From assembly GCA_005222965.1 (NCBI GenBank), contig NJBG01000001.1:435061-499060 (forward strand): a DNA stretch of 64,000 nucleotides. Direction: 5' to 3'. Position 1 is the stretch's first letter; every line of letters starts with the position of its first letter. The DNA comes from Candidatus Woesearchaeota archaeon B3_Woes (lineage in GTDB: Archaea; Nanobdellota; Nanobdellia; Woesearchaeales; B3-WOES). Shown in pieces: positions 9,809 to 46,100 of this stretch. The notes beneath the pieces were generated by a model. It worked only from the letters and a program-made list of their open reading frames with translations. It searched no databases and was not told the origin of the DNA. A program made the position numbers and the translations under genes.

Positions 9809-9828
9809 CGATTAATAATCATTCTGTT

Positions 9829-9938: not shown

Positions 9939-9942
9939 ATCT

Positions 9943-23878: not shown

Positions 23879-23880
23879 TT

Positions 23881-25255: not shown

Positions 25256-25257
25256 TT

Positions 25258-25776: not shown

Positions 25777-25815
25777 AAAAAGAAACGGAGTTTTGAGGTA
25801 TATATAGTTTTCTGT

Positions 25816-26112: not shown

Positions 26113-26155
26113 ACAAAAATATAGATATTGTTCATATTTAAATATTTCTATATAA

Positions 26156-31063: not shown

Positions 31064-31223
31064 TTTAAAAAATATTTCTTAAAAATTGAACTTTATCTAA
31101 TAAAAAATCTTTTGATTTAAAAGAAATGTAAATAAGTGCGAGTATAACGAATAAACCTATTATTAATCCAACTATAACAGACCAACCTGGTAATTCTCCT
31201 TTCTTAAAAAGATCTTTTCTCAT
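31056..31223 (-). CDS. Unannotated small ORF (~55 aa) with a pilin-like N-terminus
   Basis: Minus-strand translation gives MRKDLFKKG|ELPGWSVIVGLIIGLFVILALIYISFKSKDF… Its stop abuts the start of the 975-aa gene. Not in the ORF track (short). Confidence 0.25.
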
Positions 31224-32173
31224 CCTATTATATAAGTGCATTTTTCACTTACCTCGCTATAAGGCATTAAACTTAATACATTTACTGGTTTATGCACTTT
31301 GTCTTTGTTTATAATCCCTGTCCATTTCAAAAATGTTTCTCCATAGTTTACTAGCTTTAGAACATTAATACGTGCGTATACAATTGCTAATGGTTCATCA
31401 ACCTCATACAAATATTCTGGTGCGAATATTCCCTTATTAACATCATCTTTAGTATATTCATAAAAACTTCTTTGTTGTGGATCAATTATAACAGGATGTT
31501 TTTGCATCCATTCTGGTAAAGATGTTATTTCTCTTCCACTAAATTTTTCTTTTACTTTATCTTCAAATTTTATACGTGAACATAATAAACAAAAAGCAGG
31601 AGGTCCACTTGCTTCATAATTCCAAAATTGAAGACGGCTCAATACTTCTTTAGGAAGTGAACACTCTTTATTCTCAGGACAACCACATTTAAAATCTCCT
31701 TCCTTATTAGGTTCACACTCAATTAAACCCCACCACTCTTGAAAAACAGGCATTTGCCCCTTCCAAGCCACATCCCAACAACCCTTAATTTCATTTGCAA
31801 TAACCCTATTCATTTCAAATTCTAATAATTCTTCTTCACTATTTGAATGAAAACTAACATATTTTGAATCTTTATATTTTTCATTAAATTCATCAATCTC
31901 TTTTTGATTAGATTTCTTTTTATCTTCTAATTGTTCCAGAGTTATGTTTTTTCTTGTCATTTGACAATCTGGGGGTATTGTTTCTACACCTAAAACAGGA
32001 GACTTAGTAAGTGAACTCAATAAAAGGTTCCATTGACAATTTTTCTTTAGTGCTTCTTCTTCTAATACATTTCCCCATTCAATATAAACAAGAAGCAGCA
32101 CACCTAATGAAACCACAAGAACAATTAATGTTACGAGTATTGGTGAAAGATCTCCTTGTGCTTTTTTATTCAT
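31220..32173 (-). CDS. Cys-rich pilin-like protein (class III signal peptide)
   Basis: MNKKA|QGDLSPILVTLIVLVVSLGVLLLV. 317 aa, 12 Cys. Confidence 0.45.
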   Translation of the reverse strand: MNKKAQGDLSPILVTLIVLVVSLGVLLLVYIEWGNVLEEEALKKNCQWNLLLSSLTKSPVLGVETIPPDCQMTRKNITLEQLEDKKKSNQKEIDEFNEKYKDSKYVSFHSNSEEELLEFEMNRVIANEIKGCWDVAWKGQMPVFQEWWGLIECEPNKEGDFKCGCPENKECSLPKEVLSRLQFWNYEASGPPAFCLLCSRIKFEDKVKEKFSGREITSLPEWMQKHPVIIDPQQRSFYEYTKDDVNKGIFAPEYLYEVDEPLAIVYARINVLKLVNYGETFLKWTGIINKDKVHKPVNVLSLMPYSEVSEKCTYIIG

Positions 32174-32333: not shown

Positions 32334-32570
32334 CTAGCTCCCCGCAGCCTTACCTATAGGAATACAGCAATCATCACATTCTTGTGTTTTTATAGTTGCT
32401 CCATAAGAACAAGGAGTTTTACACTCTCCTCCTTTTTCTGTACAACTGTCTAAACTAGTCTTAACGTCTCCAATTTTACCTGAAAACACAAAAAGAATAA
32501 CAGCCAGAACAATTAAAGCTAAAATTGATATAACAATCGTTTGTAAACTTAGTCCTTGTGCTTTTTTCAT
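32334..32570 (-). CDS. Small 6-Cys pilin-like protein (tandem paralog 1 of 3)
   Basis: MKKA|QGLSLQTIVISILALIVLAVILFVF. Mature about 50 aa with C…C…C…C…CC. Confidence 0.5.
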   Translation of the reverse strand: MKKAQGLSLQTIVISILALIVLAVILFVFSGKIGDVKTSLDSCTEKGGECKTPCSYGATIKTQECDDCCIPIGKAAGS

Positions 32571-32824
32571 TCTTGGTTCATACAGCAGTAGTTTCCACCA
32601 TCTGCTTTTCCATCTCCATCATCATCACAATTTATTATATATATGGGTGTTTCGTCTTTATTACAATCAGATGCACCACTAACACATTTACCATCACAAG
32701 AATCTATTCCTTTCTTAAAACTCCCCATTTTGCCGGATAAAAGAACAATTAGAATAACCAAAACAATAAGGACCAAGGCCGCTATTACTATTGTGTTCAA
32801 ACTTAGTCCTTGTGCTTTTTTCAT
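32567..32824 (-). CDS. Small 6-Cys pilin-like protein (tandem paralog 2 of 3)
   Basis: MKKA|QGLSLNTIVIAALVLIVLVIL. Has a DDDGDGKADGG loop and ends YCCMNQE. Confidence 0.5.
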   Translation of the reverse strand: MKKAQGLSLNTIVIAALVLIVLVILIVLLSGKMGSFKKGIDSCDGKCVSGASDCNKDETPIYIINCDDDGDGKADGGNYCCMNQE

Positions 32825-32839
32825 CTTAAAAAGAAAAAA

Positions 32840-33121
32840 TTATACAGAGATGCAACAAACCCCATCTACTGCTTGGCCTTCATTAACAGTTGAATCGCCA
32901 TCTAAATCGCAATCATAAGAAACTTCTCTTGTGTAATCTCCTTCACAACTGGTTCTTGAACAGAATCCACCCATTGTTTCACAATCTCCAGAACCCTCTC
33001 TGAATCCGCCCAACCTTCCCATAAATATAACTGCTAATATAACCATAACTAATAATGCTAATGCTGCTATTATTATAACATTAAGACTTAGTCCTTGTGC
33101 TTTTTTTCTCATAAGTTTCAC
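32840..33121 (-). CDS. Small 6-Cys pilin-like protein (tandem paralog 3 of 3)
   Basis: MKLMRKKA|QGLSLNVIIIAALALLVMVIL. Has a DCDLDGDSTVNEG loop and ends VCCISV. Confidence 0.5.
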   Translation of the reverse strand: MKLMRKKAQGLSLNVIIIAALALLVMVILAVIFMGRLGGFREGSGDCETMGGFCSRTSCEGDYTREVSYDCDLDGDSTVNEGQAVDGVCCISV

Positions 33122-33187: not shown

Positions 33188-33673
33188 TTATCCATAAATA
33201 TCCAATGTAATAGTCATAACACCAGCGTCTGTTTGTAAAAATTGGGTTTTTCTTTCTCTTTCTCTTACTGTCCTTTCTTTTCCTGCTTCAACAACAACCT
33301 TTCCAGGAACACTAGCTTTAAGATAATAATCTTTTACTAAACTTATGTTAAGAATAGTTTCTGTTAAATTATTTATTGTTTGAGTTGCATACCCTTGTGA
33401 ATCAGAAGGTGAACCAGGACAAGTTATGCTTGGATTATCCTTACTAGCATCACTTAATAATTCACCTATAGATATATCATTACATTCTGTATTAGTATTC
33501 AACAAAGTATTTAGCATATTTGCTGCTAATTGGGTTTCTGAATACTCTTTTCTATAAGTTTGTGGTGCTTTAAACAAGGTAAATCTTAATGCAAACATTA
33601 AACCAACCATCAATAATACAACTACAATTGCCAACCCCATTATTTCCATCTGCGCTTTTTTGTTTTTTCTCAT
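33188..33673 (-). CDS. Pilin-like protein (class III signal peptide)
   Basis: Start re-assigned to the internal Met at 33673: MRKNKKA|QMEIMGLAIVVVLLMVGLMF. Confidence 0.45.
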   Translation of the reverse strand: MRKNKKAQMEIMGLAIVVVLLMVGLMFALRFTLFKAPQTYRKEYSETQLAANMLNTLLNTNTECNDISIGELLSDASKDNPSITCPGSPSDSQGYATQTINNLTETILNISLVKDYYLKASVPGKVVVEAGKERTVRERERKTQFLQTDAGVMTITLDIYG

Positions 33674-33776
33674 TTTATCCGAATATTCTGTGAGGATATT
33701 TGAAAACACTTGAAAATCATTTGGATTTTCAGTGCACCAAAAATCTTTGATTTTTGTGTGTCTTTGATTTTCATTT

Positions 33777-34247
33777 TTAGCTTACTGTATAATATTTAAT
33801 CTCTAACATTCCAAATGAATTAGTTCTTGTTGTAGCATTATAAAGGAGGATAGGAATTGAGGTTTTATAAACAGATCCGCTCCTTGTTCTATTATAGATA
33901 TTCCATTCCTTGTTTGAAGGATATATCTCCTTAACAGTTATATCGCTATAATAAAAAAAAGGGTAATAGACATTATTTTTGTCTGGTAAAGTCATAAAAG
34001 CACTTAATTTATACATATCAAAACAGTTATCTTTTATTATGTTTTTAGATGAACACTGTAGTTCTGGCAAAAAAGAGATTGCTTGACTAACCTTTATTGA
34101 TTCAAGTTCTTGTATTTTTGCTATTTTCTGTCCCTGACTAAATCCACTTGTTCTTATATAAAAAGTAAAACCAATTACTATAATTACAAAAAAGATAAGC
34201 ATTATTGCAATTGTTTCCATCATTTGGATTTGTGATTTCTTTTTCAT
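33777..34247 (-). CDS. Pilin-like protein (class III signal peptide)
   Basis: Start re-assigned to Met at 34247: MKKKS|QIQMMETIAIMLIFFVIIVIGF. This removes the overlap with the upstream gene. Confidence 0.45.
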   Translation of the reverse strand: MKKKSQIQMMETIAIMLIFFVIIVIGFTFYIRTSGFSQGQKIAKIQELESIKVSQAISFLPELQCSSKNIIKDNCFDMYKLSAFMTLPDKNNVYYPFFYYSDITVKEIYPSNKEWNIYNRTRSGSVYKTSIPILLYNATTRTNSFGMLEIKYYTVS

Positions 34248-34249
34248 TT

Positions 34250-35296
34250 TTAATAAACAGCAGGGCACGAATTTGCCAAAGTAATACCATTATTTGTGCT
34301 TAAACTATCTGCCCATATTCTAACATTAGGGTAACTTTGTTCAGATGCAGCAGTTGCTATGTCTCCTATGTCATTTAAAGCATTGTCAAGACTATTATAA
34401 CAAACTCCACTAACATAACCATCTCTTAATGTTGTAGTTCTATCTTCATAAACTTTTGTAATGTTTTGTAATCTGTAAAATGCATTGTTCATCCCGCAAT
34501 CATAGATTTCTTTATTTTCAGAAAAAACAGCTGCTAAAAGAGATGCCTTACCAACATAATATGTAGATTCTGACACCCAACTTGCCTCATTATAATTAAA
34601 AAATTCTAAGCCTCCATTACAATCCATTCTTTCGTCTGCAGGATCACTCACACAACCGGGCGTTATATAAACTGCACTTATGTCTTCCTCTTTTGTGTCT
34701 CCAAAAGTGGAACCAGGGTTAAAAGTTACAGGATCACTAAAATATATTACTCTTACTTTATAATTATTTTTATCCCCGCTAACTGATCCTTTTTCTTTAC
34801 TGATAAAAAGTTTAGATTGGCCATCTTTAACAATATATTTTGGAGGCAATAAATCAAAAAGAGCATTTGCTAAATCAGTCACATCATCATCAATTATATA
34901 TCTGACTTCTGGGCTTGTTACATATAAAAAATTAGTAACTCTATAAGGTACACTCCAATCATGCGCATAAACAGAAACAGTATTTCTATCAGATTCTATT
35001 GAATCTGGAGCAAAAGCATATGGAAATCTTGCTGCAAATTGATTTCCTACTCTAAACCCTTCACAACCAAACTGAATCTTTTTGTTTGGAATCTCAACCA
35101 CAGAAGAGGTTCCAGTACTTACATATGAACTACTGAATATGGATTGTAAATCTGTTTGAATTGTGCTGGATATGCTGTCTTCAGAAAACTCTTTTTGTTT
35201 TTGGACAATTGAAATAAAAAACATCAAGATTATTCCGCCAATTATTAAAATCATTATCCAATTAAACTGAAATGAAATTTGAGATTTCTTAAACAT
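34250..35296 (-). CDS. Pilin-like protein (class III signal peptide), 348 aa
   Basis: MFKKS|QISFQFNWIMILIIGGIILMFF. Confidence 0.45.
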   Translation of the reverse strand: MFKKSQISFQFNWIMILIIGGIILMFFISIVQKQKEFSEDSISSTIQTDLQSIFSSSYVSTGTSSVVEIPNKKIQFGCEGFRVGNQFAARFPYAFAPDSIESDRNTVSVYAHDWSVPYRVTNFLYVTSPEVRYIIDDDVTDLANALFDLLPPKYIVKDGQSKLFISKEKGSVSGDKNNYKVRVIYFSDPVTFNPGSTFGDTKEEDISAVYITPGCVSDPADERMDCNGGLEFFNYNEASWVSESTYYVGKASLLAAVFSENKEIYDCGMNNAFYRLQNITKVYEDRTTTLRDGYVSGVCYNSLDNALNDIGDIATAASEQSYPNVRIWADSLSTNNGITLANSCPAVY

Positions 35297-35305
35297 CTTT
35301 TTATT

Positions 35306-35806
35306 TTACGACCATTCAGAAACCCAAACATGATTTCCCATGCTCTCTAATTTTAATGTCACTTTTCCATTTACTACTTCAACACATTCTTCCTGATCTG
35401 CTCCATCTTCAACCTTAATATCTCCAACATAGAAACTTACATCCCCTGGTGGAGCTAAAAACATATTTTTATCCTCTGCTCCGTTATTTATATGCCCATT
35501 TATCAATGGATATTGTGTTGAGATAGCAGCAGATGGAAAAGAAGGATATGATTCAACAAAACAAATATGATCATAATTTCCAGGAACCGTCAAAACCTTT
35601 TTTTTAATGGTTCCTTTTGAATCTGCCTCAATCTTTTCAACTTCGTTTTTTATATCACTTTCTATCTGTAAATAAGATATTTCCTCGCTTCTATCATTAA
35701 AATAGTTTATTGCTTTATATCCATACAACAAAGTCATAGAAAACACAACCATTGCAAGAACATACATAAATACCTGACCAGCCATCTGTGATTTTTTGTT
35801 TTTCAT
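35306..35806 (-). CDS. Pilin-like protein (class III signal peptide)
   Basis: MKNKKS|QMAGQVFMYVLAMVVFSM. Its start overlaps the stop of the giant gene (ATGA). Confidence 0.45.
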   Translation of the reverse strand: MKNKKSQMAGQVFMYVLAMVVFSMTLLYGYKAINYFNDRSEEISYLQIESDIKNEVEKIEADSKGTIKKKVLTVPGNYDHICFVESYPSFPSAAISTQYPLINGHINNGAEDKNMFLAPPGDVSFYVGDIKVEDGADQEECVEVVNGKVTLKLESMGNHVWVSEWS

Positions 35807-38800
35807 TTTTTGCCTTTTGGTTTTTTCTTAGTGCCTTCTTTAATCTCTTTTAATGTTTCAAAAACATCTCCACTTGATTTTTTACCTTTGGTTATTCCTT
35901 TTAATTGTGATAAAGCGTCTCCTTTTGTTTTTTTCTGAACTTTTGAAAGAGATACCCACTCTTTTGTTGGTTTAGAAGGTTTAACAATTCTTTTTGTCTC
36001 TCTTCCCCTTCTTTGTAATCCTCTTCGTCTTTCTTGTGGTTTAGATGTTCCAGTTTCAAAACTTGAAAAGACCCCTCTTCTCTTTTCTTCTCTTTTCTTC
36101 TTGCTTTTTGCAATTAAATTTTTCAATTGTTTATCTATTTTGATTGGTTTGATAATAGAAGGGTGTGGTTTTCTAACTGAAGTAATTGTGTGTGTCTGAG
36201 TGGGGGTTTTAGGAGGTTTTTTGCCTTGTTTTCTCATATAATCTACATACATTGGATATCCAAAATAAACTCCTACTGAAATCAAGATAATCAAAAATAC
36301 TATCCAGAAAAAAGTCCACCACACTGAACCAGGTTTTGAGTTAGCATCTAATGGGTCTGTCCCTTTTTCTATTTCTTTTTTATCAACAAAACCATCTCCA
36401 TCTGTATCTGAATTAAGTGGGCTTGTTCCTGCTCTGTCTTCTTCAAAATTACTTAGACCATCATTATCAGCATCTTCATCACCATCTAAAATACCATCTC
36501 CATCGCTATCAGGAGAATAAGGGTCTAAATTATACATTTGTTCAAATTCATTACTTAAACCATCTCCATCAATATCATCATCACAAGCATCACCTAATCC
36601 ATCACCGTCCATATCTAATTGATCTAAATTTGATTCATATGGGCAATTATCATCTTGGTTTAATATTCCATCTCCATCGCTATCTGATTTACAAATTCCC
36701 CCAATACATCTCAAATCACTCAAACAATCATCATCTATATCACAAAAATCCCCTTCTTCACATCCTTCACAAGAACCCCCGCAATCCACTCCTGTTTCTC
36801 CGCTATCTAAAATATTATTATGACATTTATCTGGTGGAGAACATTTACCTGTCACAACATTACAATAACCAGACTTACAATTGCTGTCTTTATTCTCACA
36901 TTCTTCTCCATTCTCGCACTTTGGACAATTGCCTCCACAATCTATGTCTGATTCAATACTATTTTCTACCTTATCATAACAGGTTGGGTCTGCACAATAT
37001 CCTTCAATACAAAAACCAGATACACAATCCATGTTTTCATTACATTGAGGTTGTTCAATCTGACACATACTAAGATCATATTCACAATCACTATCACAGT
37101 CTAACGAACCATTAATAAAATCACTATCATAATCATTACAATCATTAAAATCACCCAAATCCCAACCATCACATGCTTCTCCTGCATTAATTTCATCATT
37201 ACCACATTCTCCTTCAGTTCCCCCTTTACACTCGTTTTCATCAAAAGTGCAATCATTATTACATGCTAGCTCTCCTTCATAAAATCCCCTGCTAGAACAG
37301 GTAGCATTTCTCAAATCACCAATATCACATTCTTCAGTTGAATCTGCTGCACCATCTCCACATTCGCTTCCTTCTCCGCCAGTACATGAACTTGTATCAA
37401 ATATACAATCATTACAGGTTAATTCTCCTCCTGTAAACTCATCAAAACTAGAACACTCTTTATCTCCTATTTCGTCGCCTTCGCATTGTTCTCCTGTATT
37501 AATATCTATTACACCATCACCACAGTAACTTCCTTCTCCGCCTGTACATGAACTTGTATCAAATATACAATCATTATTACAACCTAAAATTCCTCCTGTG
37601 AAATCTGCTATATCAAAGCAAGTGGTGTCTCCTTTGTTCTCACCATCGCATTGTTCTCCTGTATTAATTTCTCCATCTCCACAATATCCAGAAGTTCCTC
37701 CTTCACATAATATTGTTTTTAATTCGCAGTTATCGCATATTAAAGTTCCTCCTGTGAAATCATCAAAATCTCTACAGTCGGTTTCTCCTTTGTTCTCGCC
37801 GTCGCATTGTTCTCCTGCGCTTGCATCTACTATCCCATCACCACAGTAACTTCCTTCTCCACCTGTACACAAACTTATATCAAACACACAATCGCTAGCG
37901 CAAGTTAAGATTCCACCTGTAAAATAAAAATCAGAGCATTCATTAAGGTCTTCTGCCCATTCTGCGTCTCCGTCGCATTGTTCTCCTGCATCAATAATAT
38001 TATTATTACAGTATCCTGAATCAGGACCACAAGGAGCACAACTTCCTCCGCAATCTACTCCTGTTTCGTCTTCATTTTTTATACTATCATCACAATGAGC
38101 AGGTTTAGCACTAATATCAATAGTTATACCATCACTTGACATAACATCTCCTTCTAAACCATATGCGTTTTCTGGCTTTACATCAAACTGATATTTTTGT
38201 TTATCTGCAAGATTTATATCATCTACAACTATCCACTCATCTTCTGTTGTTTCATCAAGCCAATCAAATACAAAACTATCTGTTGCTCCAAATTCTTTTA
38301 ATCTATAATAATACTGCGCAATTCTTGTATCAAGATCTTCTCCCAACCATTTAACTCTTAATCTAGTATGTTTCCATGTAATTTCTGGGTTTGGTTCATT
38401 GCTTGAATCATCAACATAATTCATTTTAGGAGGAGTTACGTCAACACTAAAACCTATTTCATAAGGGATAGATGGTAACCAACTAATTTGCCTGCTATCA
38501 TAACACTTTACATAATATCTATAATCTCCATTGCCCGGAACACTAATTGTTGCTTTGTGGTCTAAAGTGGTCTGTTTTGTAAAAGGCAGCCAAGTAGAAA
38601 TTGGAGAAGATTGATCTGTAGTATATTTACAATTAGTATCTAGGTTAACTTTCGCTCTTAAATCTATTTCATTAGTTGTAAAGTAAGGATTAGTCATACT
38701 AACGACAGATAAAGGAGCACTATCACTCACCTTAAAAGATATTGGCATTGTGCTTATGAGTTCTGCCATATTCATACATTCTACCATATAAGTTCTCATA

Positions 38801-41739
38801 ACATTTCCATAAGGCGGGTAAACCTCTTGGCTATGTGTTGTTTCAAATCTTTCACTATCATATCCAGGAAAGGATCCTTCATCTTCATGACCACTATAAG
38901 TACATATTGTTTTATCATCTGTAGTAATTTTTAAACTTGTAAAAGGAGGATCAGTAGCAACAAGCGCCGGATCTGCTCCTGTAAAAGGGACATATGTTGG
39001 AGGAGATGTATCAACAGATAAATCAAATTCTTTAGATGTGATTGAATTATAATAAACATCTTTACAATTCACATACAAAATATGTTGTATGCCTTCGTAT
39101 ATTCCTGAGATATGTTCGCTATGAACCACACTATTTGTCGTATCAAGTTGTAATGAATGGGCATAATCTGCTGCTTCATTATCTAAAGCATACTTACATA
39201 TTGCAGTGTTATCTGTTTTTAATTCCAATGTAAAGGATGAAGTTGGTGAAACTCCATATGAAGGTTTAACTAATGTTATATCTAAAGATGTTGAATCAGC
39301 ATTTACTTCAAAACTTCCATACTCAAGTATGTTATTTTTTGCATAATCACTAGCATCTACTTCTAAATTATATACTCCATCTATAAATTGCATAGAATCT
39401 ATTTGAAATACTTTGTTGTCTGTTGTTTTAAAATTGGATGTTATGTCTATGCCATCCATCAAAACCTGGTTTAACAAAGAGGGTTCATCAAATACTAAAA
39501 TTACAGTAGGGGTAGAAGAGTTAACTGTTTCATCATTTGGTTGAATACTAAGACTAGGAGATTTTGTGTCTACAACAAAAGTAAACTGTTTGTTAGAGCT
39601 CATCTTCCTTCCAAATCTGTTTTCAGCATTAAATTCATATTTATAGGTGTCATCTGGAAGATAAGACATATCAGTCAGAATATCTCCTATCTTTATTTCA
39701 TGATTTTGCTGGGAAGATGTCATTAAAGTCAACAAAATTGGATTAGTTGCTCTGTCTTCTAACCGATGATATGAGAGCCTTGCATTATTAGAAAAATTAA
39801 TTTGTATTATTGGTAATGGATTGTTTGTATAATATACACTATTTATGTAGTTTGAATCTTTAATATAATAAGCATAAGCATTGGGTCTAATGTCTGTTGA
39901 TGCTGCAAAAGACATATCCTTAACCAAACCTATGTTTTTTGAGGGATCTTCTGAATAATATTTAAGAATAGTATTTCCAGGTATTAAAGTGAGTGAATCT
40001 GATTCACAAGAACCTGCACAAAGTTTTAATGTTCCTTCATACTCTCCAACAGCTAAATTTCTATAAGTTGTTATTTTAAAATCTCCTGTCCTAGGCATAC
40101 AGGCACTTGAAGTATCTACACAATAATATGTTTTATAATCTACTGATCCTTTTGGTACAGCAGATTCTTCTATTTTAATTTTATCAATAATCTCTATGTT
40201 AAAGCCGTTTACAACCCCATCATTATCTTTTATTGTAGTAATTGTTGTTTCTGGTCTAAAATAATCTTTTTCACAATCTGGGTCTAAACTTCCTTCACAA
40301 TCTGGTAATGCAATCCCGTCTGCATCTTTTACACAATTTCCTTCTGTCCATCTACAAACATTGATTCCACAAGAATCTCCGCTAACATCGACAAATTCAT
40401 TAAGATTGTTTAATGATGCTGGAGAAGAAATAACACTACAATCTAATTGTGTGGTATATACCGGACAGCCCACGCTTCCACAGCTATTGCATGTTCCTCC
40501 TGCCTCAAAACAAGGATATTTATCAGTTGATAATGCCATTAACCTTTCTTCTGTAAAAATATCAAAAACAGAATTATATGCGCCATAATTAATATTCTCC
40601 ATACCATCAGATCCTTCTTGGTAACAGAATTGACAATTATCTGACTCATCATCAACACATACACCAATACCTAGTTCATCATAAATTGGTTCCCACCTGC
40701 AGGATGTTGCTGGATCCTGGACAGCCCCAACCATGCAATTGTCTTTTTCGCATGTTTCTTGAGATTTATAATCATAACAACCCATTGCGTCTCCCCCGCA
40801 ATTATAACAAGCATCGACATTTGTTGAAGACCTATCTAAAAAACAGTATTTATAATTAGATTCTGTTCCTTCACAAAGTTCTCGAGTTAAATAATACATT
40901 CCAAATGGATTTCCAAGGTCTTCATTGCAATCTGTCTCTTCAATACAAGTTCCACTTACGCATATATAATTTTCCTGACAAGCTGTTTCGCTATTAAGAG
41001 AATTGTGAATACTGCAAGAATATGGTTCATTACCAACACAAAATGTTGAAGGGGTAGTCAATCCTTCGCATTCAGAATCTCCAGAATAAATATTTACAGC
41101 TCCACTATCTTTTGAACTTTGGTATTGATAATTTCCTTGAATAACATACCTATATGTTGTTTCCCAGCTTATAGATATATCTGTATATGTTTTCTGGGTT
41201 GTTTCGCCTATTATTGAAAATTCAGTACAATCAGATCCGCTACATCTCATTATTGCATAATTAACTGCTGGACAATTATAATTATCCTCCCATGTAAGAG
41301 TTATTTGTCTAAATCCTCTATCCTCTCCTCTTATGATGTTGGTTGGTTTTATATTAAGATCAGGATCACTGCATCCCTCCCCTCCTGCCGCTAGAGAGCA
41401 AGATCCAACACAACATTGTTGACTTGAAGAGCATGCCCCCCCTTCTGGATTTGAAGAACAAGCTTCATAATCAGAACATGAACCAGGTCTACAAGTATTA
41501 CAAAGAGATAATCCACATGTTGTTGCGCATTCTTCATCACTACCTGCCGCCCCTTCAACTATTGTTCCACTACTCCACGCACATAGTTGAGCAATCTCTC
41601 CATTAGGGATCTGATAAGCTGTTTTTGGTAAACAACAACATGAAGGATAAGAAGCACCTTTAACAAAAAATACACTAAAGAGAAGAGTAGTTAAAAAAAT
41701 TAATCCTATTATTATTGTTATTTTTAATTTTTTGTTCAT
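35803..41739 (-). CDS. Giant (1978 aa) Cys-rich surface protein: signal peptide, Cys-rich/FN3-like and beta-sandwich modules, tandem CGDG…EQCD repeats, thrombospondin type-3 Ca-binding repeats, C-terminal TM anchor and polybasic cytoplasmic tail
   Basis: N-terminal signal MNKKLKITIIIGLIFLTTLLFSVFFVKG. At least five tandem modules of the form CGDG(x5-6)GEQCDGENKG(x)T(x)C(x)DF(x)DFTGG(x)L(x)C(x3)C(x)FDTS(x)CTGGEGS. TSP3-like DSDGDGILNQDDNCP…DMDGDGLGDACDDDIDGDGLSNEFE…DSDGDGILDGDEDADNDGLSNFEED…DTDGDGFVDKKE. TM VWWTFFWIVFLIILISVGVYFGY. About 150-aa K/R-rich tail. Confidence 0.7.
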   Translation of the reverse strand: MNKKLKITIIIGLIFLTTLLFSVFFVKGASYPSCCCLPKTAYQIPNGEIAQLCAWSSGTIVEGAAGSDEECATTCGLSLCNTCRPGSCSDYEACSSNPEGGACSSSQQCCVGSCSLAAGGEGCSDPDLNIKPTNIIRGEDRGFRQITLTWEDNYNCPAVNYAIMRCSGSDCTEFSIIGETTQKTYTDISISWETTYRYVIQGNYQYQSSKDSGAVNIYSGDSECEGLTTPSTFCVGNEPYSCSIHNSLNSETACQENYICVSGTCIEETDCNEDLGNPFGMYYLTRELCEGTESNYKYCFLDRSSTNVDACYNCGGDAMGCYDYKSQETCEKDNCMVGAVQDPATSCRWEPIYDELGIGVCVDDESDNCQFCYQEGSDGMENINYGAYNSVFDIFTEERLMALSTDKYPCFEAGGTCNSCGSVGCPVYTTQLDCSVISSPASLNNLNEFVDVSGDSCGINVCRWTEGNCVKDADGIALPDCEGSLDPDCEKDYFRPETTITTIKDNDGVVNGFNIEIIDKIKIEESAVPKGSVDYKTYYCVDTSSACMPRTGDFKITTYRNLAVGEYEGTLKLCAGSCESDSLTLIPGNTILKYYSEDPSKNIGLVKDMSFAASTDIRPNAYAYYIKDSNYINSVYYTNNPLPIIQINFSNNARLSYHRLEDRATNPILLTLMTSSQQNHEIKIGDILTDMSYLPDDTYKYEFNAENRFGRKMSSNKQFTFVVDTKSPSLSIQPNDETVNSSTPTVILVFDEPSLLNQVLMDGIDITSNFKTTDNKVFQIDSMQFIDGVYNLEVDASDYAKNNILEYGSFEVNADSTSLDITLVKPSYGVSPTSSFTLELKTDNTAICKYALDNEAADYAHSLQLDTTNSVVHSEHISGIYEGIQHILYVNCKDVYYNSITSKEFDLSVDTSPPTYVPFTGADPALVATDPPFTSLKITTDDKTICTYSGHEDEGSFPGYDSERFETTHSQEVYPPYGNVMRTYMVECMNMAELISTMPISFKVSDSAPLSVVSMTNPYFTTNEIDLRAKVNLDTNCKYTTDQSSPISTWLPFTKQTTLDHKATISVPGNGDYRYYVKCYDSRQISWLPSIPYEIGFSVDVTPPKMNYVDDSSNEPNPEITWKHTRLRVKWLGEDLDTRIAQYYYRLKEFGATDSFVFDWLDETTEDEWIVVDDINLADKQKYQFDVKPENAYGLEGDVMSSDGITIDISAKPAHCDDSIKNEDETGVDCGGSCAPCGPDSGYCNNNIIDAGEQCDGDAEWAEDLNECSDFYFTGGILTCASDCVFDISLCTGGEGSYCGDGIVDASAGEQCDGENKGETDCRDFDDFTGGTLICDNCELKTILCEGGTSGYCGDGEINTGEQCDGENKGDTTCFDIADFTGGILGCNNDCIFDTSSCTGGEGSYCGDGVIDINTGEQCEGDEIGDKECSSFDEFTGGELTCNDCIFDTSSCTGGEGSECGDGAADSTEECDIGDLRNATCSSRGFYEGELACNNDCTFDENECKGGTEGECGNDEINAGEACDGWDLGDFNDCNDYDSDFINGSLDCDSDCEYDLSMCQIEQPQCNENMDCVSGFCIEGYCADPTCYDKVENSIESDIDCGGNCPKCENGEECENKDSNCKSGYCNVVTGKCSPPDKCHNNILDSGETGVDCGGSCEGCEEGDFCDIDDDCLSDLRCIGGICKSDSDGDGILNQDDNCPYESNLDQLDMDGDGLGDACDDDIDGDGLSNEFEQMYNLDPYSPDSDGDGILDGDEDADNDGLSNFEEDRAGTSPLNSDTDGDGFVDKKEIEKGTDPLDANSKPGSVWWTFFWIVFLIILISVGVYFGYPMYVDYMRKQGKKPPKTPTQTHTITSVRKPHPSIIKPIKIDKQLKNLIAKSKKKREEKRRGVFSSFETGTSKPQERRRGLQRRGRETKRIVKPSKPTKEWVSLSKVQKKTKGDALSQLKGITKGKKSSGDVFETLKEIKEGTKKKPKGKK
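37190..38040. repeat. Imperfect tandem DNA repeats (~165 bp period, ~5 copies) encoding the CGDG…EQCD Cys-rich modules of the giant surface protein
   Basis: Near-identical strings recur at about 37355, 37520 and 37850 (…caccacagtaacttccttctcc[ga]cctgtaca[tc][ga]aactt[ga]tatcaaa[tc]a[tc]acaatc…). Confidence 0.7.
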
Positions 41740-41740: not shown

Positions 41741-43105
41741 CTAACATCCTGTACCTGTTATAGTAAAATCAATATATTGCCAATCCCTTGATTTGTCAAA
41801 TCCAGGAACACACGAATATGGTGAATAATGATTATCTGAAACACAAATTTCTACTGTAAACGACCCACCAATCCCATTTCCTACAGGCGGATAAGATTCG
41901 CAATATTGGCTTATAATAGTTTTACTAAAAGAAGTGTTTCTTGCTAAACCTAAATCTAAAGAGGTGTAGTATACAGTTATGCTCTTTTCATCAGGGTCAG
42001 TAACATTAACCATATCACTAAAATAAGTTTCATTTAAAACTTCTCCAACCCCTATTGTTTTAGGAGAAGTTATATTTTCTAAAACAGGGTATCTGTTTTG
42101 TCTTGCAAATTGAAAGATAAAAGGGGTGTTTGAAAAATTATCTTCTATTTTGATGATATTATCCTCAAAAGGGGATATCTCATTACCGCCTTGTCCATGT
42201 CTCAAAATAGTAAGAATCATATTGCCATCAATTAATCCCAATGAATCTATTGTAACGTCATAACTTTCATTATTTTTATCAAAATCAAGCAAAGTATTTG
42301 CTATTTCATGTAATTTTTTTAATCTAACTTTTGTGTCATAATAAAATTCATCCACTCTTATCTGCTTTTTTGTTGTCGGATCAACAATATTCAAAGGGTA
42401 GTTTATTATTGTAATTATTGTTTCTTCGGTTGTATTAACACTAACACTTAAAGTTCCATTTAATTCTATCTTAAACCCTTCATCTTCAAAAATTGATAAG
42501 TCAATGCAATTTTCAAACGTGTTGTTGATATAAACCTTTAATTGATTATACATGCTTCCTCCTCCATCTAATTCTGGTAAATAAGTCATATCCCCAAAAC
42601 ACCCTTTTTTTAGTGTACAATTCCTTTCACTAGGCTTTGGAAAACCCATCCAAGGATACTCTCCTCCTTTAAAATTTCCTACTAAAACTTCAGAAATATT
42701 GTTTTTGCAAGTTATACCAGATCCACCTAAACAATTATAACTTTCGCTTGATGACCTTTTCAAACCATAACTTACATTAAGTTTTGTATCTCCTTGTACA
42801 AGAGTAAGAGAAAAATTAGCAGGTCTAGGAATATCAATGCCTCCTTGATAATCATATATTACTCCCCCTTGGTTTCCTAATAATTTCATTCCGTCTTTTG
42901 CAACCTTTCCCAAACACGCTGTTACATAAGATCTTATGCTGGCTATGTCAAAAGTTGTTTCTTGATGTACTAATGCTTCTTTTCTTGTTTTGTGTCCTGT
43001 TGTTTGCTTTCCAGCATAAAAAACAAGCCCCATAACAATCAAAAAAACAAAACCAATTAACATAAAGAAGGTTAATTGTCCTTTTTTTGAAAATTTTTCT
43101 TTCAT
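41741..43105 (-). CDS. Class III signal peptide protein with a large extracellular domain unusually dense in N-glycosylation sequons
   Basis: MKEKFSKKG|QLTFFMLIGFVFLIVMGLVF. At least 12 N-x-S/T sequons (NVS, NIS, NCT, NNT, NGT, NTT, NES, NFS, NIT, NET, NVT, NTS). Overlaps the upstream gene by 4 nt. Confidence 0.5.
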   Translation of the reverse strand: MKEKFSKKGQLTFFMLIGFVFLIVMGLVFYAGKQTTGHKTRKEALVHQETTFDIASIRSYVTACLGKVAKDGMKLLGNQGGVIYDYQGGIDIPRPANFSLTLVQGDTKLNVSYGLKRSSSESYNCLGGSGITCKNNISEVLVGNFKGGEYPWMGFPKPSERNCTLKKGCFGDMTYLPELDGGGSMYNQLKVYINNTFENCIDLSIFEDEGFKIELNGTLSVSVNTTEETIITIINYPLNIVDPTTKKQIRVDEFYYDTKVRLKKLHEIANTLLDFDKNNESYDVTIDSLGLIDGNMILTILRHGQGGNEISPFEDNIIKIEDNFSNTPFIFQFARQNRYPVLENITSPKTIGVGEVLNETYFSDMVNVTDPDEKSITVYYTSLDLGLARNTSFSKTIISQYCESYPPVGNGIGGSFTVEICVSDNHYSPYSCVPGFDKSRDWQYIDFTITGTGC

Positions 43106-46100
43106 TTTATTCTTAATTTGGGTCCTAAATCGTTTAATAGCTCATAATAACCTTGGGTTAAACCGCCAGTAAAAACATAATTAACATTTCCTTGTTTTAC
43201 ACAATCAAAAGGCACTAAAACAGGATTAGCAACTTTATAATTTTCAATCATAACACATAGATTTGTATTAAAATTAGTATATGTTGCAGACATGTATTTT
43301 TTATTCTTTATTTCTTCTGTTATGATATAAATTGATTTTTCTCCTTTTTTGTGTAAATATATCTTATTAAAATTACTAGTTTCATTAACAAATCCATAAT
43401 CATATGAAAGGCGTATATTTTGTAAATAATAAAGTGTTGGCTCAAATAAATTTCTTATATAAGCTGCTTCTCCTCCTGTCAGAACATCACTTATAGATGG
43501 CTCGTTTCTAGTATAAATTACTGATTTGATTTTATTATTATAATATACTCCACCACCACAAACTTCAAAAGTACTTGAATCCAATACGCTGCTGCAATCC
43601 CTGTTAGTTCCGCCTATTGCTTCTAATATAGAGTAAGAAGATGCGTCTACGTCATGGTTAATAGAAGCTCCAATTATGACTTTATTTTCATCATATTTCA
43701 AAACACATAAATTATTAATACAAGGGACTATGTTTCCTTTTCCAATATTACATGTATATCCTCCTGTTTGGAAATAATTTACAGTAGGATACCATTCATT
43801 TATAGAATACCCATAAAAGTTTAATACTTTATCATAGCTATCACAAAATAAGCTATATTCGTTTGAACTACTTCCAATATCCATTAATTGTCTTATTAAT
43901 AAAGCGGTTCTTGATGTCCATTCTCCATTTCTGCAATAATGGTCTCCGATAAATTCTCCATCATTTATGCATCTGACTTCATTAAGAGGGTAATGAGTAA
44001 CGCTTGTTGCGTCCTCAACAGTTTTATCAAAACTTAGTTCATCTGGGTTTACAAGACATTGGGTATCATCTAAACAATAACCACTATCTGTTTTATCCCA
44101 TGTATATGCTTCTTTTAAACTTCCTACACATTTCCCTCCTATAACCTTCATCTTCGGTTTACTGCAACAAGCATAAGAAGCATATGCTCCTTTTGTAAAA
44201 TATTCTTCTGGGTCATCTCCGCAACAAGCTCCATCTCCTGCATCACCTGTTAAACCCCAAGGTGGATGTCCTAAGGCCTCTTCTTCTGAAATATTTACTA
44301 TCGCCTTACAAACACCAAGATCAGTATCAGATCCATACCATTGCCCCATAGCACACAGGTGAACATCTGGAAATTCTCCATGCAAATCACCACTTGCAAC
44401 ACATTCACCATCTATAACACAATAAAGTTCGTCTGGACAACACGCTCTATTAAAAGGTGGAGTTGTTTGATCAAAAGTTGGATTTGTTTGATATTCGTCT
44501 GTACAATCACTCTCTCCGTCATCATTAACTCCGCAGGTTCTATTCCTAATTGGAGATAGATACCCTTCAGGAGAACAATCTAAATCAGAACAATCAATAG
44601 TACCATCACAATCATTATCATATCCATCAAAACAAAAATCTTCTTCTATTGGTATTCGGATGTTTATTGGACCTTCATCAATTCCACTTATAACACCATC
44701 AAGCCAATCTAATTTAGGAGTATTTGGATCACAATCACAAAAAGGACTTGATGATAAACCTGGATTTATATAATAAGGGTTGAAATTCATAGTGGAATCG
44801 ATGCTTTCAGATGTGCCATTATCCATACAATCCAAATATGTAGAACCTAGATGACAAGATTCAGCATGATAAAGATTAGAAGGTTGAATACCATATCCAT
44901 CTTCATCATCATCAATACAAGAAGTAACACATCTTCCTTCTCCATCACAATGTTTTCCATCTCCTTTTTCTTCATTAGGAGTAAACTCATTACAATCCCA
45001 TATTGCTGTATAATACGGATATTCCTCTCCAGCCACAAGATAAGAATAATCTTCTGCCTCTTCTTCTGAAAAGATCTTGGGATCATCTACAGAATATTCT
45101 CCAGCAGGCAAATTTTGAGCGAGACATCCTCCTCTACAAGTATAATGTTGACAAACAGGATCAGGGTCGCAACTTGCTACGTCTTTTTGCCTGGTGGCTT
45201 TTTCAACGTCTTCTGGTTCTAATTCTTTTGTTTCATTAATAAAATCTCCATCACAATACATGTCGCCAGCCCACGGGTCTAATGGTTGACAACGTTTTTC
45301 TCCTTCTCTATTATATTGAACACAATGTCCTTTGCCATCTCCTTCTGCGTCCCATGCAAAACATTCTTCATCTTCGCTACATTCATCATTAATTGCTAAT
45401 CCTCCTTTAACAGAGCAACAAACTTCATACTTATAATCAGAATCATCAAAACAACTTGCAAAATGAGCATTATTTACATATTCTCCATCAATCTCTCCTG
45501 CTAAAGAAAACATACAAAAATATGAATTCTCCCCGTTTGAATCTTCTAAAGCGTCACATTCCTGGTCTGTATTTGTAACCTGACAATCCAAGTCAACATC
45601 TAAATCTGTTGTTAAACAAACTTCATAAGAATAATCCCCTCTCCAATAAGTAGACCCATGTGCATTATCCCTATCTGATAAAGAAATTATATGTCCATCA
45701 AGACCACAAGCAGTATAGTCCTCATTCCTGCTTATAGATTCAAAACCAGAAATATTACAACATATATTATTTTTATTGCTCCCAAAATAAGAATCACTAC
45801 CAGATGCATGAGCATTATAAGGCGGATCTGATAAACTAATAATAAAATGTTCACCAGTTTCACAATTATCTCTTACAACACATCTGCCAGCGGCTTTTGA
45901 ACCATCTTTAGTATACTCACAACCTTTTCCATTTATCTTATCCACCTCCCCATCACAATCATTATCATATCCATCACAGCTCTTTTCTGACTCTTGATAC
46001 TTGTCATTGTGTTGATAATAAGTTGAAGAATCACATCCTGGCCACACACCATTAGTACATGTTTCCTGTGCTCCAACACAAACGCCGTTTAAAGCTTTCG

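What the first reader, a model, noticed from the sequence alone, without database searches (positions are those of the whole stretch)
35803..41739. 1978-aa membrane-anchored giant protein combining myxobacterial-type Cys-rich repeats, TSP type-3 Ca-binding repeats and a 150-aa polybasic cytoplasmic tail
The architecture is signal peptide, then about 1300 aa of Cys-rich/FN3-like and beta-sandwich modules, then at least five tandem CGDG(x6)GEQCDGENKG…FTGG…C…FDTS.CTGGEGS modules. The DNA of these modules is itself a ~165-bp tandem repeat at about 37190-38040. Next come CGG.C..C modules, then DxDxDGxxDxxD thrombospondin type-3 repeats (DSDGDGILNQDDNCP…DMDGDGLGDACDDDIDGDGLSNEFE…DTDGDGFVDKKE). A single C-terminal TM and a K/R-rich tail (RKQGKKPPKTPTQ…KKKREEKRRG…KKKPKGKK) follow. 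This is the architecture of a calcium-dependent adhesin projecting from the cell. The CGDG…EQCD module resembles the Myxococcales Cys-rich repeat (TIGR02232-like) and is unusual in an archaeon. The repeat DNA makes the gene recombination-prone, with possible length variation.
Basis: partly seen in the sequence, partly recalled or inferred. Interest (0 to 1): 0.7.

Follow-up and report, generated by a model that had tools for sequence, protein, structure and literature searches.

The report
Giant anchored stalk protein in a pilin-like cluster
This is a real 1978-residue calcium-binding, disulfide-rich surface protein of a tiny symbiotic-type archaeon (Woesearchaeota), and it is the conserved centrepiece of a lineage-wide, unannotated gene cluster of pilus-type proteins that is a good candidate for the cell's attachment apparatus.

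Summary
ORF 35803-41739 (-) encodes 1978 aa: signal peptide, Cys-rich head, FN3-like domain, a family-specific Cys-rich domain, about seven beta-sandwich domains, six 50-55-aa six-Cys repeats, DCGGxC knots, six TSP type-3 motifs (above Pfam cut-offs), one TM helix and a 150-aa tail of net charge +34.

It is identical to a "hypothetical protein" of Ca. Woesearchaeota archaeon B3_Woes.

The gene is the core of a tightly packed operon: a 1118-aa secreted Cys-rich protein, a 454-aa pilin-like protein, the giant, four pilin-like proteins, then small pilins. This order recurs in 49 of 57 evaluable species-level genomes, nearly all labelled Woesearchaeota or Nanoarchaeota.

The Cys repeat is a long variant of the myxobacterial DUF4215/TIGR02232 superfamily. 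It falls below those models' thresholds but is clearly homologous to proteins that carry them. It is an optional spacer of 0, 2, 4, 6, 12 or 18 units.

Best reading: a membrane-anchored, Ca2+-binding stalk/adhesin that works with a type-IV-pilus-like appendage. Function is inferred.

This is a new variant of a known kind, the large C-terminally anchored proteins of archaeal pilus loci.

The parts
35803..41739 (-). Complete CDS of the giant protein (1978 aa plus stop)
   Evidence: It is 100 % identical to NCBI CEE44_02535, Ca. Woesearchaeota archaeon B3_Woes.
41656..41739 (-). Sec-type signal peptide (aa 1-28, MNKKLKITIIIGLIFLTTLLFSVFFVKG)
   Evidence: Hydropathy peak of 2.62 at aa 7-25. It lacks the [KR][GAS]Q motif of the neighbouring genes.
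41365..41655 (-). N-terminal Cys-rich head (aa 29-125, begins CCC)
   Evidence: Cys positions. Cys are nearly invariant across the family. Confidence in the AF2 model is low to medium here.
41074..41364 (-). FN3-like beta-sandwich domain (aa ~126-222)
   Evidence: AF2 strands at model residues 105-191, pLDDT 83-92.
40249..41073 (-). Family-specific Cys-rich alpha/beta domain (aa ~223-497). It is the most conserved part, including the CYDYK[ST]xx[AS]C signature.
   Evidence: Invariant Cys and motifs in alignment A1. This is where the core matched in 165+ representatives begins. The signature was the pattern used to find 128 genomic relatives.
38095..40248 (-). Array of about seven Ig/FN3-like beta-sandwich domains (aa ~498-1215)
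   Evidence: AF2 pLDDT mostly 80-95, all-beta. Foldseek matches Ig/FN3 arrays. Big_13 scores 27.8 bits. Weak titin FN3 profile hit.
37054..38013 (-). Six tandem 50-55-aa six-Cys repeats, CG[DN]G..GE.CDG..C..GG.L.C..C.FD.S.C (aa 1243-1562). This is a variable-length spacer.
   Evidence: AF2 model pLDDT 85.4. Copy number varies from 0 to 18 in orthologues.
36688..37053 (-). Cys-knot / DCGGxCxxC modules (aa 1563-1684). A first DCGG module lies at aa 1216-1242 (window 38014-38094).
   Evidence: Motif positions. Nearly invariant Cys columns across the family. Sub-threshold TIGR04201 Myxo_Cys_RPT, 15 bits against 25.
36340..36687 (-). Thrombospondin type-3 calcium-binding repeats next to the membrane (aa 1685-1800, six DxDxDG motifs)
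   Evidence: Pfam TSP3_bac 62.1 bits and TSP_3 46.5 bits. PDB hits to COMP and TSP-1/-2.
36256..36324 (-). Single transmembrane helix (aa ~1806-1828, VWWTFFWIVFLIILISVGVYFGY)
   Evidence: Hydropathy 2.43. Conserved in 58 of 66 species-level orthologues.
35806..36255 (-). Polybasic cytoplasmic tail (aa 1829-1978) with conserved short motifs RRGVFSSF and D(A/V)(L/F)..LK.I
   Evidence: Net charge +34. Motif conservation across 36 family members.
43102..46458 (-). Cluster gene A: 1118-aa secreted Cys-rich protein (6.8 % Cys, no TM anchor). Its stop overlaps the start of B by 4 nt.
   Evidence: Orthologues occupy the same position in L001, L003 and L004. No detectable similarity to the giant.
41741..43105 (-). 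Cluster gene B: 454-aa protein with a class-III-like N-terminus (..SKKGQLTFFMLIGFVFLIV..)
   Evidence: Orthologues in L001, L003 and L004 at E 3e-16 to 3e-106.
35306..35806 (-). Cluster gene D: 166-aa pilin-like protein (MKNKKSQMAGQVFMYVLAMVVF..). Its start overlaps the giant's stop by 4 nt.
34250..35296 (-). Cluster gene E: 348-aa pilin-like protein (MFKKSQISFQFNWIMILIIGG..)
33777..34268 (-). Cluster gene F: ~156-aa pilin-like protein. The likely true start is MKKKSQIQMMETIAIML at 34247.
   Evidence: Invariant K-x-Q....ET.A N-terminus in alignment A3. Faint N-terminal hit to the bindosome protein BasB, E 0.0012.
33188..33709 (-). Cluster gene G: ~160-aa pilin-like protein (..MRKNKKAQMEIMGLAIVVVLL..)
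32334..33121 (-). Three tandem small (78, 85 and 93 aa) putative major pilins: M.KKAQGLSLN + hydrophobic helix + small Cys-rich head ending in CC
   Evidence: and alignment A4. Small class-III ORFs follow the cluster in 36 of 57 loci.
31220..32173 (-). 317-aa protein with a class-III-like N-terminus (MNKKAQGDLSPILVTLIVLVV..), the last gene of the run
   Evidence: Weak orthologue in L003.

Best explanation
The gene encodes a type-I membrane protein. A Sec signal peptide exports about 1780 residues, a single C-terminal helix holds the protein in the cytoplasmic membrane, and a 150-residue polybasic tail stays inside the cell.

The outside part is a long, strongly acidic stalk stiffened by disulfides. 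From the membrane outward it runs: TSP type-3 calcium-binding repeats, Cys knots, an optional spacer of 53-aa Cys repeats (six here), about seven Ig/FN3-like domains, and a conserved Cys-rich head.

The protein is the conserved large subunit of a Woesearchaeal gene cluster that also encodes a second large secreted Cys-rich protein, five larger proteins with type-IV-pilin-like (class III) N-termini, and several small putative major pilins.

Most likely, the giant is a calcium-dependent surface anchor or adhesin that works together with this pilus-like appendage. It holds or presents the appendage, or the partner surface, some distance from the membrane. The number of Cys repeats would set the reach. 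The conserved tail motifs would dock it to a cytoplasmic or membrane-face partner.

Shown: architecture, topology signals, TSP3 membership, family, synteny and repeat-number variation.
Inferred: calcium binding in vivo, adhesion, physical association with the pilins, and the role of the tail.
For: Architecture.

Family: 36 full-length relatives share signal peptide, ectodomain, DCGG modules, TSP3, TM and a K/R tail of 21-42 %. There are 165 cluster representatives at E<=1e-30 and 438 at E<=1e-10. 128 species-level genomes carry a relative, nearly all labelled Woesearchaeota, Nanoarchaeota or Nanoarchaeia.

Operon: genes abut or overlap (4-nt overlaps at A/B and giant/D, a 1-nt gap between B and the giant).

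Synteny: the order A-B-giant-D-E-F-G with orthologues by BLASTP (E 1e-10 to 1e-118) holds in loci whose giants are only 28-51 % identical. Of 57 evaluable loci, 49 have all four size-matched downstream ORFs, and 44 have a class-III-like N-terminus on at least 3 of the 4.

N-termini: the [KR][GAS]Q + ~20 hydrophobic residue pattern is conserved in the orthologues.

Spacer behaviour: units always sit at the same architectural position, in 0, 2, 4, 6, 12 or 18 copies. P0002 and P0003 are 89-92 % identical in the flanks but 51 % identical in the repeat block, with 6 and 4 units.

Precedent: archaeal type IV pilus loci that combine minor pilins, a large secreted putative adhesin and a large Cys-containing protein anchored by a C-terminal TM are described in PMC4858521. 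Divergent DPANN pilins are noted in PMC6393860.
Against: No pilus ATPase, TadC-like platform or prepilin peptidase was seen in the scanned parts of the window or among the precomputed Pfam hits within 10 kb of six homologous loci. Window bases 1-12 kb were read by eye only.

The pilin-like status of the neighbours rests on an N-terminal sequence pattern. Pfam, NCBIfam and PDB-sequence searches give no significant pilin hit. My class-III detector is crude.

No recognisable ligand-binding (lectin, integrin-like or similar) domain was found. The head domain has no known relative.

There are no expression, localisation or binding data. The stable position next to housekeeping genes (RNase P p30, RPA, RadA) fits a core envelope role as well as it fits adhesion.
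Confidence: 0.55

Rival explanations
1. It is the main envelope (S-layer or canopy) protein of these archaea, or its membrane anchor. On this reading it is a structural coat subunit rather than an adhesin, and the pilin-like neighbours are only co-located surface genes.
For: It has a C-terminal TM anchor and many Ig-like domains, as predicted for archaeal and DPANN S-layer-like proteins (bioRxiv 10.1101/2023.10.27.564410; PMC4858521 calls such proteins 'S-layer-like'). The family is present in at least 128 species-level genomes. It sits in a stable position beside housekeeping genes. No S-layer protein has been determined for DPANN.
Against: The protein is very long and thin. Both models have low pTM (0.39 and 0.33) despite high pLDDT, which fits beads on a string. 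Stalk length is freely variable at 0-18 repeats, which is hard to reconcile with a fixed lattice. N-glycosylation sequons are depleted here, 4 against 18.5 expected, P = 6e-5, although this is not true of the whole family. The tight, translationally coupled order with pilin-like genes is conserved across deep divergence.
Confidence: 0.2
2. It is a stand-alone calcium-dependent adhesin. It would act on its own, like bacterial giant repeat adhesins, with no functional link to the neighbouring genes.
For: TSP3 repeats, Ig-like arrays and a variable repeat spacer are typical of giant adhesins. Foldseek hits include the neck of the Aureispira grappling-hook protein GhpA.
Against: Gene order with A, B and D-G is conserved in 49 of 57 loci, with overlapping stop and start codons. 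That is not expected for an independent gene.
Confidence: 0.12
3. It is a PilY1/PilC-like pilus-tip adhesin. On this reading it is carried to the tip of the fibre by the four minor-pilin-like proteins and released from the membrane.
For: It is encoded in the middle of a set of four to five minor-pilin-like genes and has calcium-binding motifs, as PilY1 does in bacterial minor-pilin operons. Makarova et al. propose such tip adhesins for Methanococcus loci.
Against: It has a conserved C-terminal TM helix plus a 100-270-aa cytoplasmic tail with conserved motifs, which argues for permanent membrane anchoring. It has no PilY1/PilC or DUF2341 domain. The unanchored protein A is a better candidate for a tip component.
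Confidence: 0.06
4. The ORF is an assembly artefact or pseudogene created by mis-assembled repeats.
For: The gene contains internal repeats.
Against: The repeats are only 50-76 % identical at the DNA level, so they are easy to assemble. The ORF is uninterrupted for 5.9 kb. Orthologues of the same architecture come from many independent assemblies.
Confidence: 0.01

Closest known systems
Large C-terminally anchored, Cys-containing 'S-layer-like' proteins encoded in archaeal type IV pilus loci (Makarova et al. 2016, PMC4858521; e.g. arCOG05471 in Thermoproteales)
   Same: A large secreted protein with a single C-terminal TM and conserved cysteines. It is encoded together with a second large signal-peptide protein (adhesin or minor pilin) and several small divergent pilins.
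   Different: No sequence relationship was shown. This family belongs to DPANN (Woesearchaeota/Nanoarchaeota). It is 1400-3100 aa long and has TSP3 repeats, an optional myxobacterial-type Cys-repeat spacer and a long polybasic tail with conserved motifs. No ATPase or TadC gene lies adjacent.
Thrombospondin / COMP type-3 repeats and bacterial TSP3 repeats (Pfam PF02412, PF18884)
   Same: The DxDxDGxxDxxD motifs score above the Pfam cut-offs and align to COMP and TSP-1/-2.
   Different: Only about 115 aa of the 1978 belong to this family. Here the repeats sit directly next to the membrane anchor of an archaeal protein.
Myxococcus cysteine-rich repeat (TIGR02232) / DUF4215 (PF13948)
   Same: It shares the CGDG..GE.CD(D/G) N-terminal half. 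The closest relatives of the repeat block often carry PF13948 and are from Myxococcota/Polyangia. Long and short units coexist in P0054 and P0105.
   Different: The unit is about 53 aa with six Cys and a distinct C-terminal half (..GG.L.C..C.FD.S.C). It scores below the TIGR02232 cut-off and gives no PF13948 hit. No solved structure resembles the confident AF2 model.
PilY1/PilC tip adhesins of bacterial type IVa pili
   Same: A large calcium-binding non-pilin protein encoded inside a set of about four minor-pilin genes.
   Different: There is no homology, no beta-propeller and no DUF2341 domain. This protein has a TM anchor and a cytoplasmic tail.
Giant bacterial repeat adhesins (e.g. SiiE, GhpA grappling hook)
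   Same: Long strings of Ig-like domains with Ca2+-binding elements and a variable repeat number. There are weak profile and Foldseek matches.
   Different: Those proteins are secreted by T1SS or T9SS and are not anchored by a C-terminal TM helix. There is no specific sequence relationship.

Membership tests
Thrombospondin type-3 repeat (Pfam TSP_3 PF02412 / TSP3_bac PF18884) | HMM score above the curated gathering cut-off (25 bits) | tested here: met
   On aa 1680-1805, TSP3_bac scores 62.1 bits and TSP_3 46.5 bits. On the whole protein they score 37.2 and 29.0 bits.
Thrombospondin type-3 repeat (Pfam TSP_3 PF02412 / TSP3_bac PF18884) | Repeated DxDxDGxxDxxD calcium-coordinating motifs | tested here: met
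   Six motifs between aa 1686 and 1790. The segment aligns to COMP and TSP-2 type-3 repeats.
Thrombospondin type-3 repeat (Pfam TSP_3 PF02412 / TSP3_bac PF18884) | Actual Ca2+ binding | not testable with these tools
   Needs ITC or 45Ca overlay on the recombinant segment.
Myxococcus cysteine-rich repeat TIGR02232 | HMM score at or above the curated cut-off (20.8 bits) over the 38-position model | tested here: not met
   15.4 bits, E 0.012. It matches model positions 3-20 only, in 4 stretches. The whole-protein scan gave no hit at E<=1.
DUF4215 (Pfam PF13948) | HMM hit to PF13948 | tested here: not met
   No hit at E<=10 for the repeat block or for a single unit.
DUF4215 / TIGR02232 superfamily (homology in the wider sense) | Significant sequence similarity to proteins that are members | tested here: met
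   257 relatives at E<=1e-3. Many carry precomputed PF13948 or the JGI name 'cysteine-rich repeat protein'. Long and short units lie side by side in P0054 and P0105.
Archaeal type IV pilus (T4P-like) locus | Neighbouring genes encode proteins with class III signal peptides (charged N-terminus, [KR][GAS] cleavage motif, ~20 hydrophobic residues) | tested here: inconclusive
   The pattern is present and conserved in B, D, E, F, G, three small ORFs and the 317-aa ORF, and in at least 3 of 4 downstream slots in 44 of 57 loci. No pilin HMM or PDB hit supports it. The only trace is a faint BasB hit at E 0.0012.
Archaeal type IV pilus (T4P-like) locus | Assembly ATPase (PilB/ArlI), TadC/ArlJ platform and prepilin peptidase in the genome, often nearby | tested here: not met
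   None was found in window 12-28 kb, 28-47 kb or 46-54 kb by Pfam. No GxGDxKL peptidase motif occurs anywhere in the window. None appears in the 10-kb flanks of six homologous loci. The rest of the genome could not be examined, and such genes are often encoded in trans (PMC4858521).
Archaeal type IV pilus (T4P-like) locus | Accessory large proteins: one anchored by a C-terminal TM with conserved Cys, and one large secreted protein | tested here: met
   These are the giant (TM plus 118 Cys) and protein A (1118 aa, 6.8 % Cys, no TM). Compare.
Archaeal S-layer protein | C-terminal membrane anchor and multiple Ig-like domains | tested here: met
Archaeal S-layer protein | Many N-glycosylation sequons | tested here: not met
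   The ectodomain has 4 N-x-S/T sequons against 18.5 expected (P = 6e-5). The family as a whole is neutral, 692 observed against 697 expected.
Archaeal S-layer protein | Among the most abundant proteins; forms a 2-D lattice | not testable with these tools
   Needs expression data and cryo-ET.
PilY1 / PilC pilus-tip adhesin | PilY1/PilC C-terminal beta-propeller or DUF2341 domain; soluble after export | tested here: not met
   There are no such Pfam hits. The protein has a TM helix and a cytoplasmic tail.

The most novel reading that the evidence does not exclude
The cluster A-B-giant-D-E-F-G plus small pilins could encode a previously undescribed, lineage-defining attachment organelle of Woesearchaeota/Nanoarchaeota. 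In it the giant would be a trans-membrane coupler. Its adjustable-length, Ca2+-stiffened stalk would engage the pilus-like fibre or the host surface outside. Its conserved polybasic tail motifs would connect that contact to a cytoplasmic partner, possibly nucleic acid, because five of the 36 relatives compared add an Ada-like zinc module to the tail. This would link host attachment to signalling or to uptake of host-derived DNA or nucleotides.
Probability: 0.12. Interest if true: 0.8.

Novelty: new variant of a known kind. Interest (0 to 1): 0.55.

Why it matters
Woesearchaeota and related DPANN archaea are abundant, uncultivated, small-genome organisms thought to live attached to other cells. 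How they attach is unknown, and no DPANN S-layer or adhesin has been determined experimentally.

This analysis turns a single 'hypothetical protein' into a defined, widely conserved gene cluster. At least 128 species-level genomes carry a relative of the giant, and the cluster order was confirmed in 49 of 57 evaluable loci.

It gives a clear architecture, a searchable signature (CYDYK[ST]xx[AS]C) and testable predictions: surface location, Ca2+ dependence, association with pilin-like proteins, and stalk length set by repeat number.

It also defines a long six-Cys variant of the myxobacterial DUF4215/TIGR02232 repeat. No current Pfam or NCBIfam model captures this variant, and no solved structure resembles the confident model.

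Tried and rejected
- Pfam and NCBIfam scans of the N-terminal 500 aa, the aa 820-1216 segments, the Cys-knot region and the tail gave nothing significant.
- Pfam and NCBIfam scans of the neighbours gave no pilin, ATPase or peptidase hit.
- PDB sequence searches with profiles of protein F and of the small pilins gave only noise.
- Foldseek of the N-terminal model returned only generic Ig/FN3 arrays.
- A profile search with the cytoplasmic tail, looking for other proteins that share its motifs, returned one 96-aa fragment, so that idea could not be tested.
- Protein A is not a paralogue of the giant.
- A motif search for a prepilin peptidase in the window found nothing. A candidate membrane protein upstream in L004 has no Pfam hit.
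- Sequon depletion looked like a family trait that would argue against an S-layer role, but it is lineage-specific.
- Literature searches found no paper on this family or on genome B3_Woes.
- The 'recombination-prone tandem DNA repeat' idea is rejected for this gene as it stands now.

Full report
**Observation.** It is 100 % identical to the NCBI 'hypothetical protein CEE44_02535' of Candidatus Woesearchaeota archaeon B3_Woes, which lies on a 1.0-Mb contig. The window is archaeal and AT-rich, with GC about 0.24-0.37. It carries RadA, RPA, ribosomal protein S2 and RNase P p30 and a 5S rRNA gene. ORFs whose N-termini look like MCM, PolD and Orc1 were read by eye and not HMM-tested.

**Anatomy of the protein.**
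- It starts with a Sec-type signal peptide. Then come a Cys-rich head that begins CCC, an FN3-like domain, and a Cys-rich alpha/beta domain at aa ~223-497. That domain is the best-conserved part of the family.
- About seven beta-sandwich domains follow. The AlphaFold2 model of aa 28-1215, built from 27 family sequences, has mean pLDDT 80.5 and is all-beta from about aa 497. Foldseek returns only generic Ig/FN3 arrays such as leptin receptor, MDGA1, titin and the GhpA neck.
- After a first DCGGxCxxC module come six tandem units of 50-55 aa with six Cys each, at aa 1243-1562.
- Two more DCGG/Cys-knot modules follow, then six DxDxDG motifs. These are genuine thrombospondin type-3 repeats: TSP3_bac 62.1 bits and TSP_3 46.5 bits against cut-offs of 25, with PDB hits to COMP and TSP-1/-2 at E 7e-13 to 3e-8.
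- The TSP3 block abuts the only TM helix (aa ~1806-1828). A 150-aa tail with 47 K+R (net +34) follows. The ectodomain has net charge -228.

**The Cys repeat.**
- At the DNA level the repeat is real but old. Spacing is 156-165 nt, pairwise identity is 50-76 %, and the longest shared exact word is 33 nt. TRF does not call it.
- Against curated models it fails. It gives no PF13948 hit, and TIGR02232 scores only 15.4 bits (cut-off 20.8), confined to model positions 3-20 of 38.
- A search with the repeat block nevertheless finds 257 relatives, the best at E 1.7e-54. Many carry PF13948 or JGI's name 'cysteine-rich repeat protein'. Named sources are mostly Myxococcales, Polyangia or Myxococcota, with Gemmatimonadetes, Proteobacteria and one Pacearchaeota.
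- Their sequences show the same ~53-aa unit, CG[DN]G..GE.CDG..C..GG.L.C..C.FD.S.C. In P0054 and P0105 this long unit sits beside the short canonical unit.

**The family.**
- The full protein has 36 long relatives (1409-3119 aa). Those that carry a name are all Woesearchaeota or Nanoarchaeota.
- All share the plan of ectodomain, DCGG modules, a single C-terminal TM and a 99-269-aa tail with 21-42 % K+R, and all but two have TSP3-like motifs.
- An exhaustive HMMER search with aa 28-1215 gives 981 representatives at E<=1e-3, 438 at E<=1e-10 and 165 at E<=1e-30. Most align over query aa ~237-1214.
- In one-genome-per-species GTDB contigs, 128 stretches encode a relative. The titles are almost all Woesearchaeota, Nanoarchaeota or Nanoarchaeia. 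The rest are placeholder 'uncultured Methanosarcinales ... binchicken' names, one Binatia and one Aenigmatarchaeota.
- Of 66 species-level ORFs of at least 1350 aa, 58 have the TM plus K/R tail, and 59 have a TSP3 motif within 250 aa of the TM.
- The repeat block is optional and always sits at the same place. Copy number is 0 in 51, 2 in one, 4 in one, 6 in ten and 18 in three of those 66. The first set of relatives also includes 12 units (P0023) and 18 units (P0011).
- P0002 and P0003 are 89-92 % identical on either side of the block. Within it they are 51 % identical, with 6 and 4 units. The block therefore turns over much faster than the rest. This confirms the predicted length variation on an evolutionary scale.

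**Context, the main new point.**
- The giant lies in an uninterrupted minus-strand run from 46458 to 31220. Stops and starts abut or overlap: 4 nt at A/B and at giant/D, and a 1-nt gap between B and the giant.
- Upstream are A (1118 aa, signal peptide, 6.8 % Cys, no anchor) and B (454 aa).
- Downstream are D (166 aa), E (348 aa), F (~156 aa) and G (~160 aa). Then come three small ORFs (93, 85 and 78 aa), a 39-aa ORF and a 317-aa ORF.
- B, D, E, F, G, the three small ORFs and the 317-aa ORF all begin with a few basic residues, then [KR][GAS]Q, then about 20 hydrophobic residues. This is the pattern of archaeal class III (type IV prepilin) signal peptides.
- The same gene order, with BLASTP-supported orthologues of A, B, D, E, F and G, occurs around giants that are only 28-51 % identical (L001, L003 and L004). 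The same size pattern occurs in L005 and L006.
- Systematically, 49 of 57 evaluable species-level loci have all four size-matched downstream ORFs. In 44 of them at least three of the four carry the class-III-like N-terminus. In 36, small class-III ORFs follow.
- Even the flanking RNase P p30 gene is shared, by the window, L003 and L005. So is a second pilin-like run next to RPA/RadA, seen in the window, L001 and L004.

**Limits of the pilus assignment.**
- No pilin HMM or solved pilin matches these neighbours. The only trace is a faint N-terminal match of F to the Sulfolobus bindosome protein BasB, at E 0.0012.
- No ATPase, TadC or prepilin peptidase is present in the scanned parts of the window or in the flanks of six loci.
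- Makarova et al. note that archaeal pilins evolve very fast, that pilin sets are often encoded apart from the ATPase/TadC module, and that DPANN pilins escape similarity searches (PMC4858521; PMC6393860).
- The same 2016 survey describes loci with small minor pilins, a large signal-peptide protein ('adhesin or minor pilin') and a large Cys-containing protein anchored by a C-terminal TM ('S-layer-like'). That is the closest known kind.

**The tail.**
- An alignment of 36 tails shows two short conserved motifs within otherwise low-complexity basic sequence. One is a basic stretch ending R-K-G-(V/L)-F-S-x-F. The other, in one or two copies, is (D/E)(D/E)(V/I)F-x-K-L-K-x-I-x-K.
- Five members append a module of about 55 aa, YHK.GC...C.VCFP, that scores just under the Ada_Zn_binding cut-off: 21.2 bits against 23, E 2.9e-4.
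- This suggests a specific intracellular partner, possibly nucleic acid, but it is only a hint. A profile search for the tail motifs elsewhere failed.

**Mechanism.**
- Best-supported reading, confidence about 0.55: the giant is a membrane-anchored, calcium-binding, disulfide-stabilised stalk. It is the large subunit of a conserved Woesearchaeal pilus-like surface apparatus. It acts as an anchor or adhesin whose reach is set by the number of Cys repeats, and its tail docks to something inside the cell.
- Rivals: an S-layer or canopy protein (0.2), a stand-alone adhesin (0.12), a PilY1-like tip adhesin (0.06), and an artefact (0.01).
- Sequon depletion in this protein (4 against 18.5 expected) argues mildly against a classical glycosylated S-layer role, but it is lineage-specific.

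**Novelty.** I found no publication on this family or on this genome. The kind, a large anchored protein in an archaeal pilus locus, is known. What is new is the combination: lineage-wide conservation in DPANN, the fixed gene order, TSP3 repeats at the membrane, the myxobacterial-type variable spacer and the long motif-bearing basic tail. I rate it a new variant of a known kind, with interest 0.55.

Noticed in passing
window 21949-26178 (-), next to RPA 20881-21879, YdjM 20429-20884 and RadA 18859-19950: There is a second run of ORFs with class-III-like N-termini (e.g. MNKKGIAMQTLVMAILSLVVLVIL at 25816-26178). It is syntenic with similar runs next to RPA/RadA in L001 and L004. In L006 the corresponding run is followed by a PF01464 SLT (lytic transglycosylase) protein. 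The 500-aa ORF 21949-23451 has an SLT-like 'GTESDFG' stretch by eye but no Pfam hit.
   Followed up: partly
relatives P0005, P0007, P0008, P0009, P0010 (C-termini); not in the window protein: These family members extend the cytoplasmic tail with a ~55-aa Cys module, YHK.GCITIK...C.VCFP. It scores just below the Pfam Ada_Zn_binding cut-off (21.2 bits against 23, E 2.9e-4), hinting at nucleic-acid contact.
   Followed up: partly
window 36325-41655 (ectodomain of the giant): N-x-S/T sequons are strongly depleted here (4 observed, 18.5 expected, P = 6e-5). The same holds in P0003, P0011, P0012 and P0026. Other family members are up to 2.3-fold enriched, and the family total is neutral. N-glycosylation of this protein therefore appears to differ between lineages.
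   Followed up: partly
relatives P0011, P0023 and loci: Repeat copy numbers cluster at 6, 12 and 18, with rare cases of 2 and 4. This suggests that a six-unit block is itself the unit of duplication.
   Followed up: no
L007, L010, L013 and about 25 other loci; L042; L068: Many contigs carrying this Woesearchaeal cluster are titled 'uncultured Methanosarcinales archaeon ... binchicken'. One is titled Candidatus Binatia bacterium and one Aenigmatarchaeota. These are probably placeholder or mis-binned taxonomic labels.
   Followed up: no
window 43102-46458 (-): Protein A has sub-threshold hits to Cu-binding_MopE (23.3 bits against 27) and to the NCBIfam 'acidic double-disulfide repeat' (21 bits against 41). 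This is another bacterial-type Cys-repeat flavour in the same operon.
   Followed up: no
window 47331-47909 (-); L003 5259-5804; L005 1-93: An RNase P p30 gene lies just upstream of the cluster in the window and in two distant relatives. The cluster therefore sits in a stable, vertically inherited neighbourhood rather than a mobile island.
   Followed up: partly
window 9828-9941 (+): A 5S rRNA gene (74.3 bits) stands alone, with no other rRNA or tRNA gene detected in the 64-kb window.
   Followed up: no
window 14388-17311 (-): Two adjacent ~490-aa polytopic membrane proteins give a weak AglB core-domain hit (21.9 bits against 27). They are possible oligosaccharyltransferase-like genes and are relevant to the glycosylation question.
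   Followed up: no
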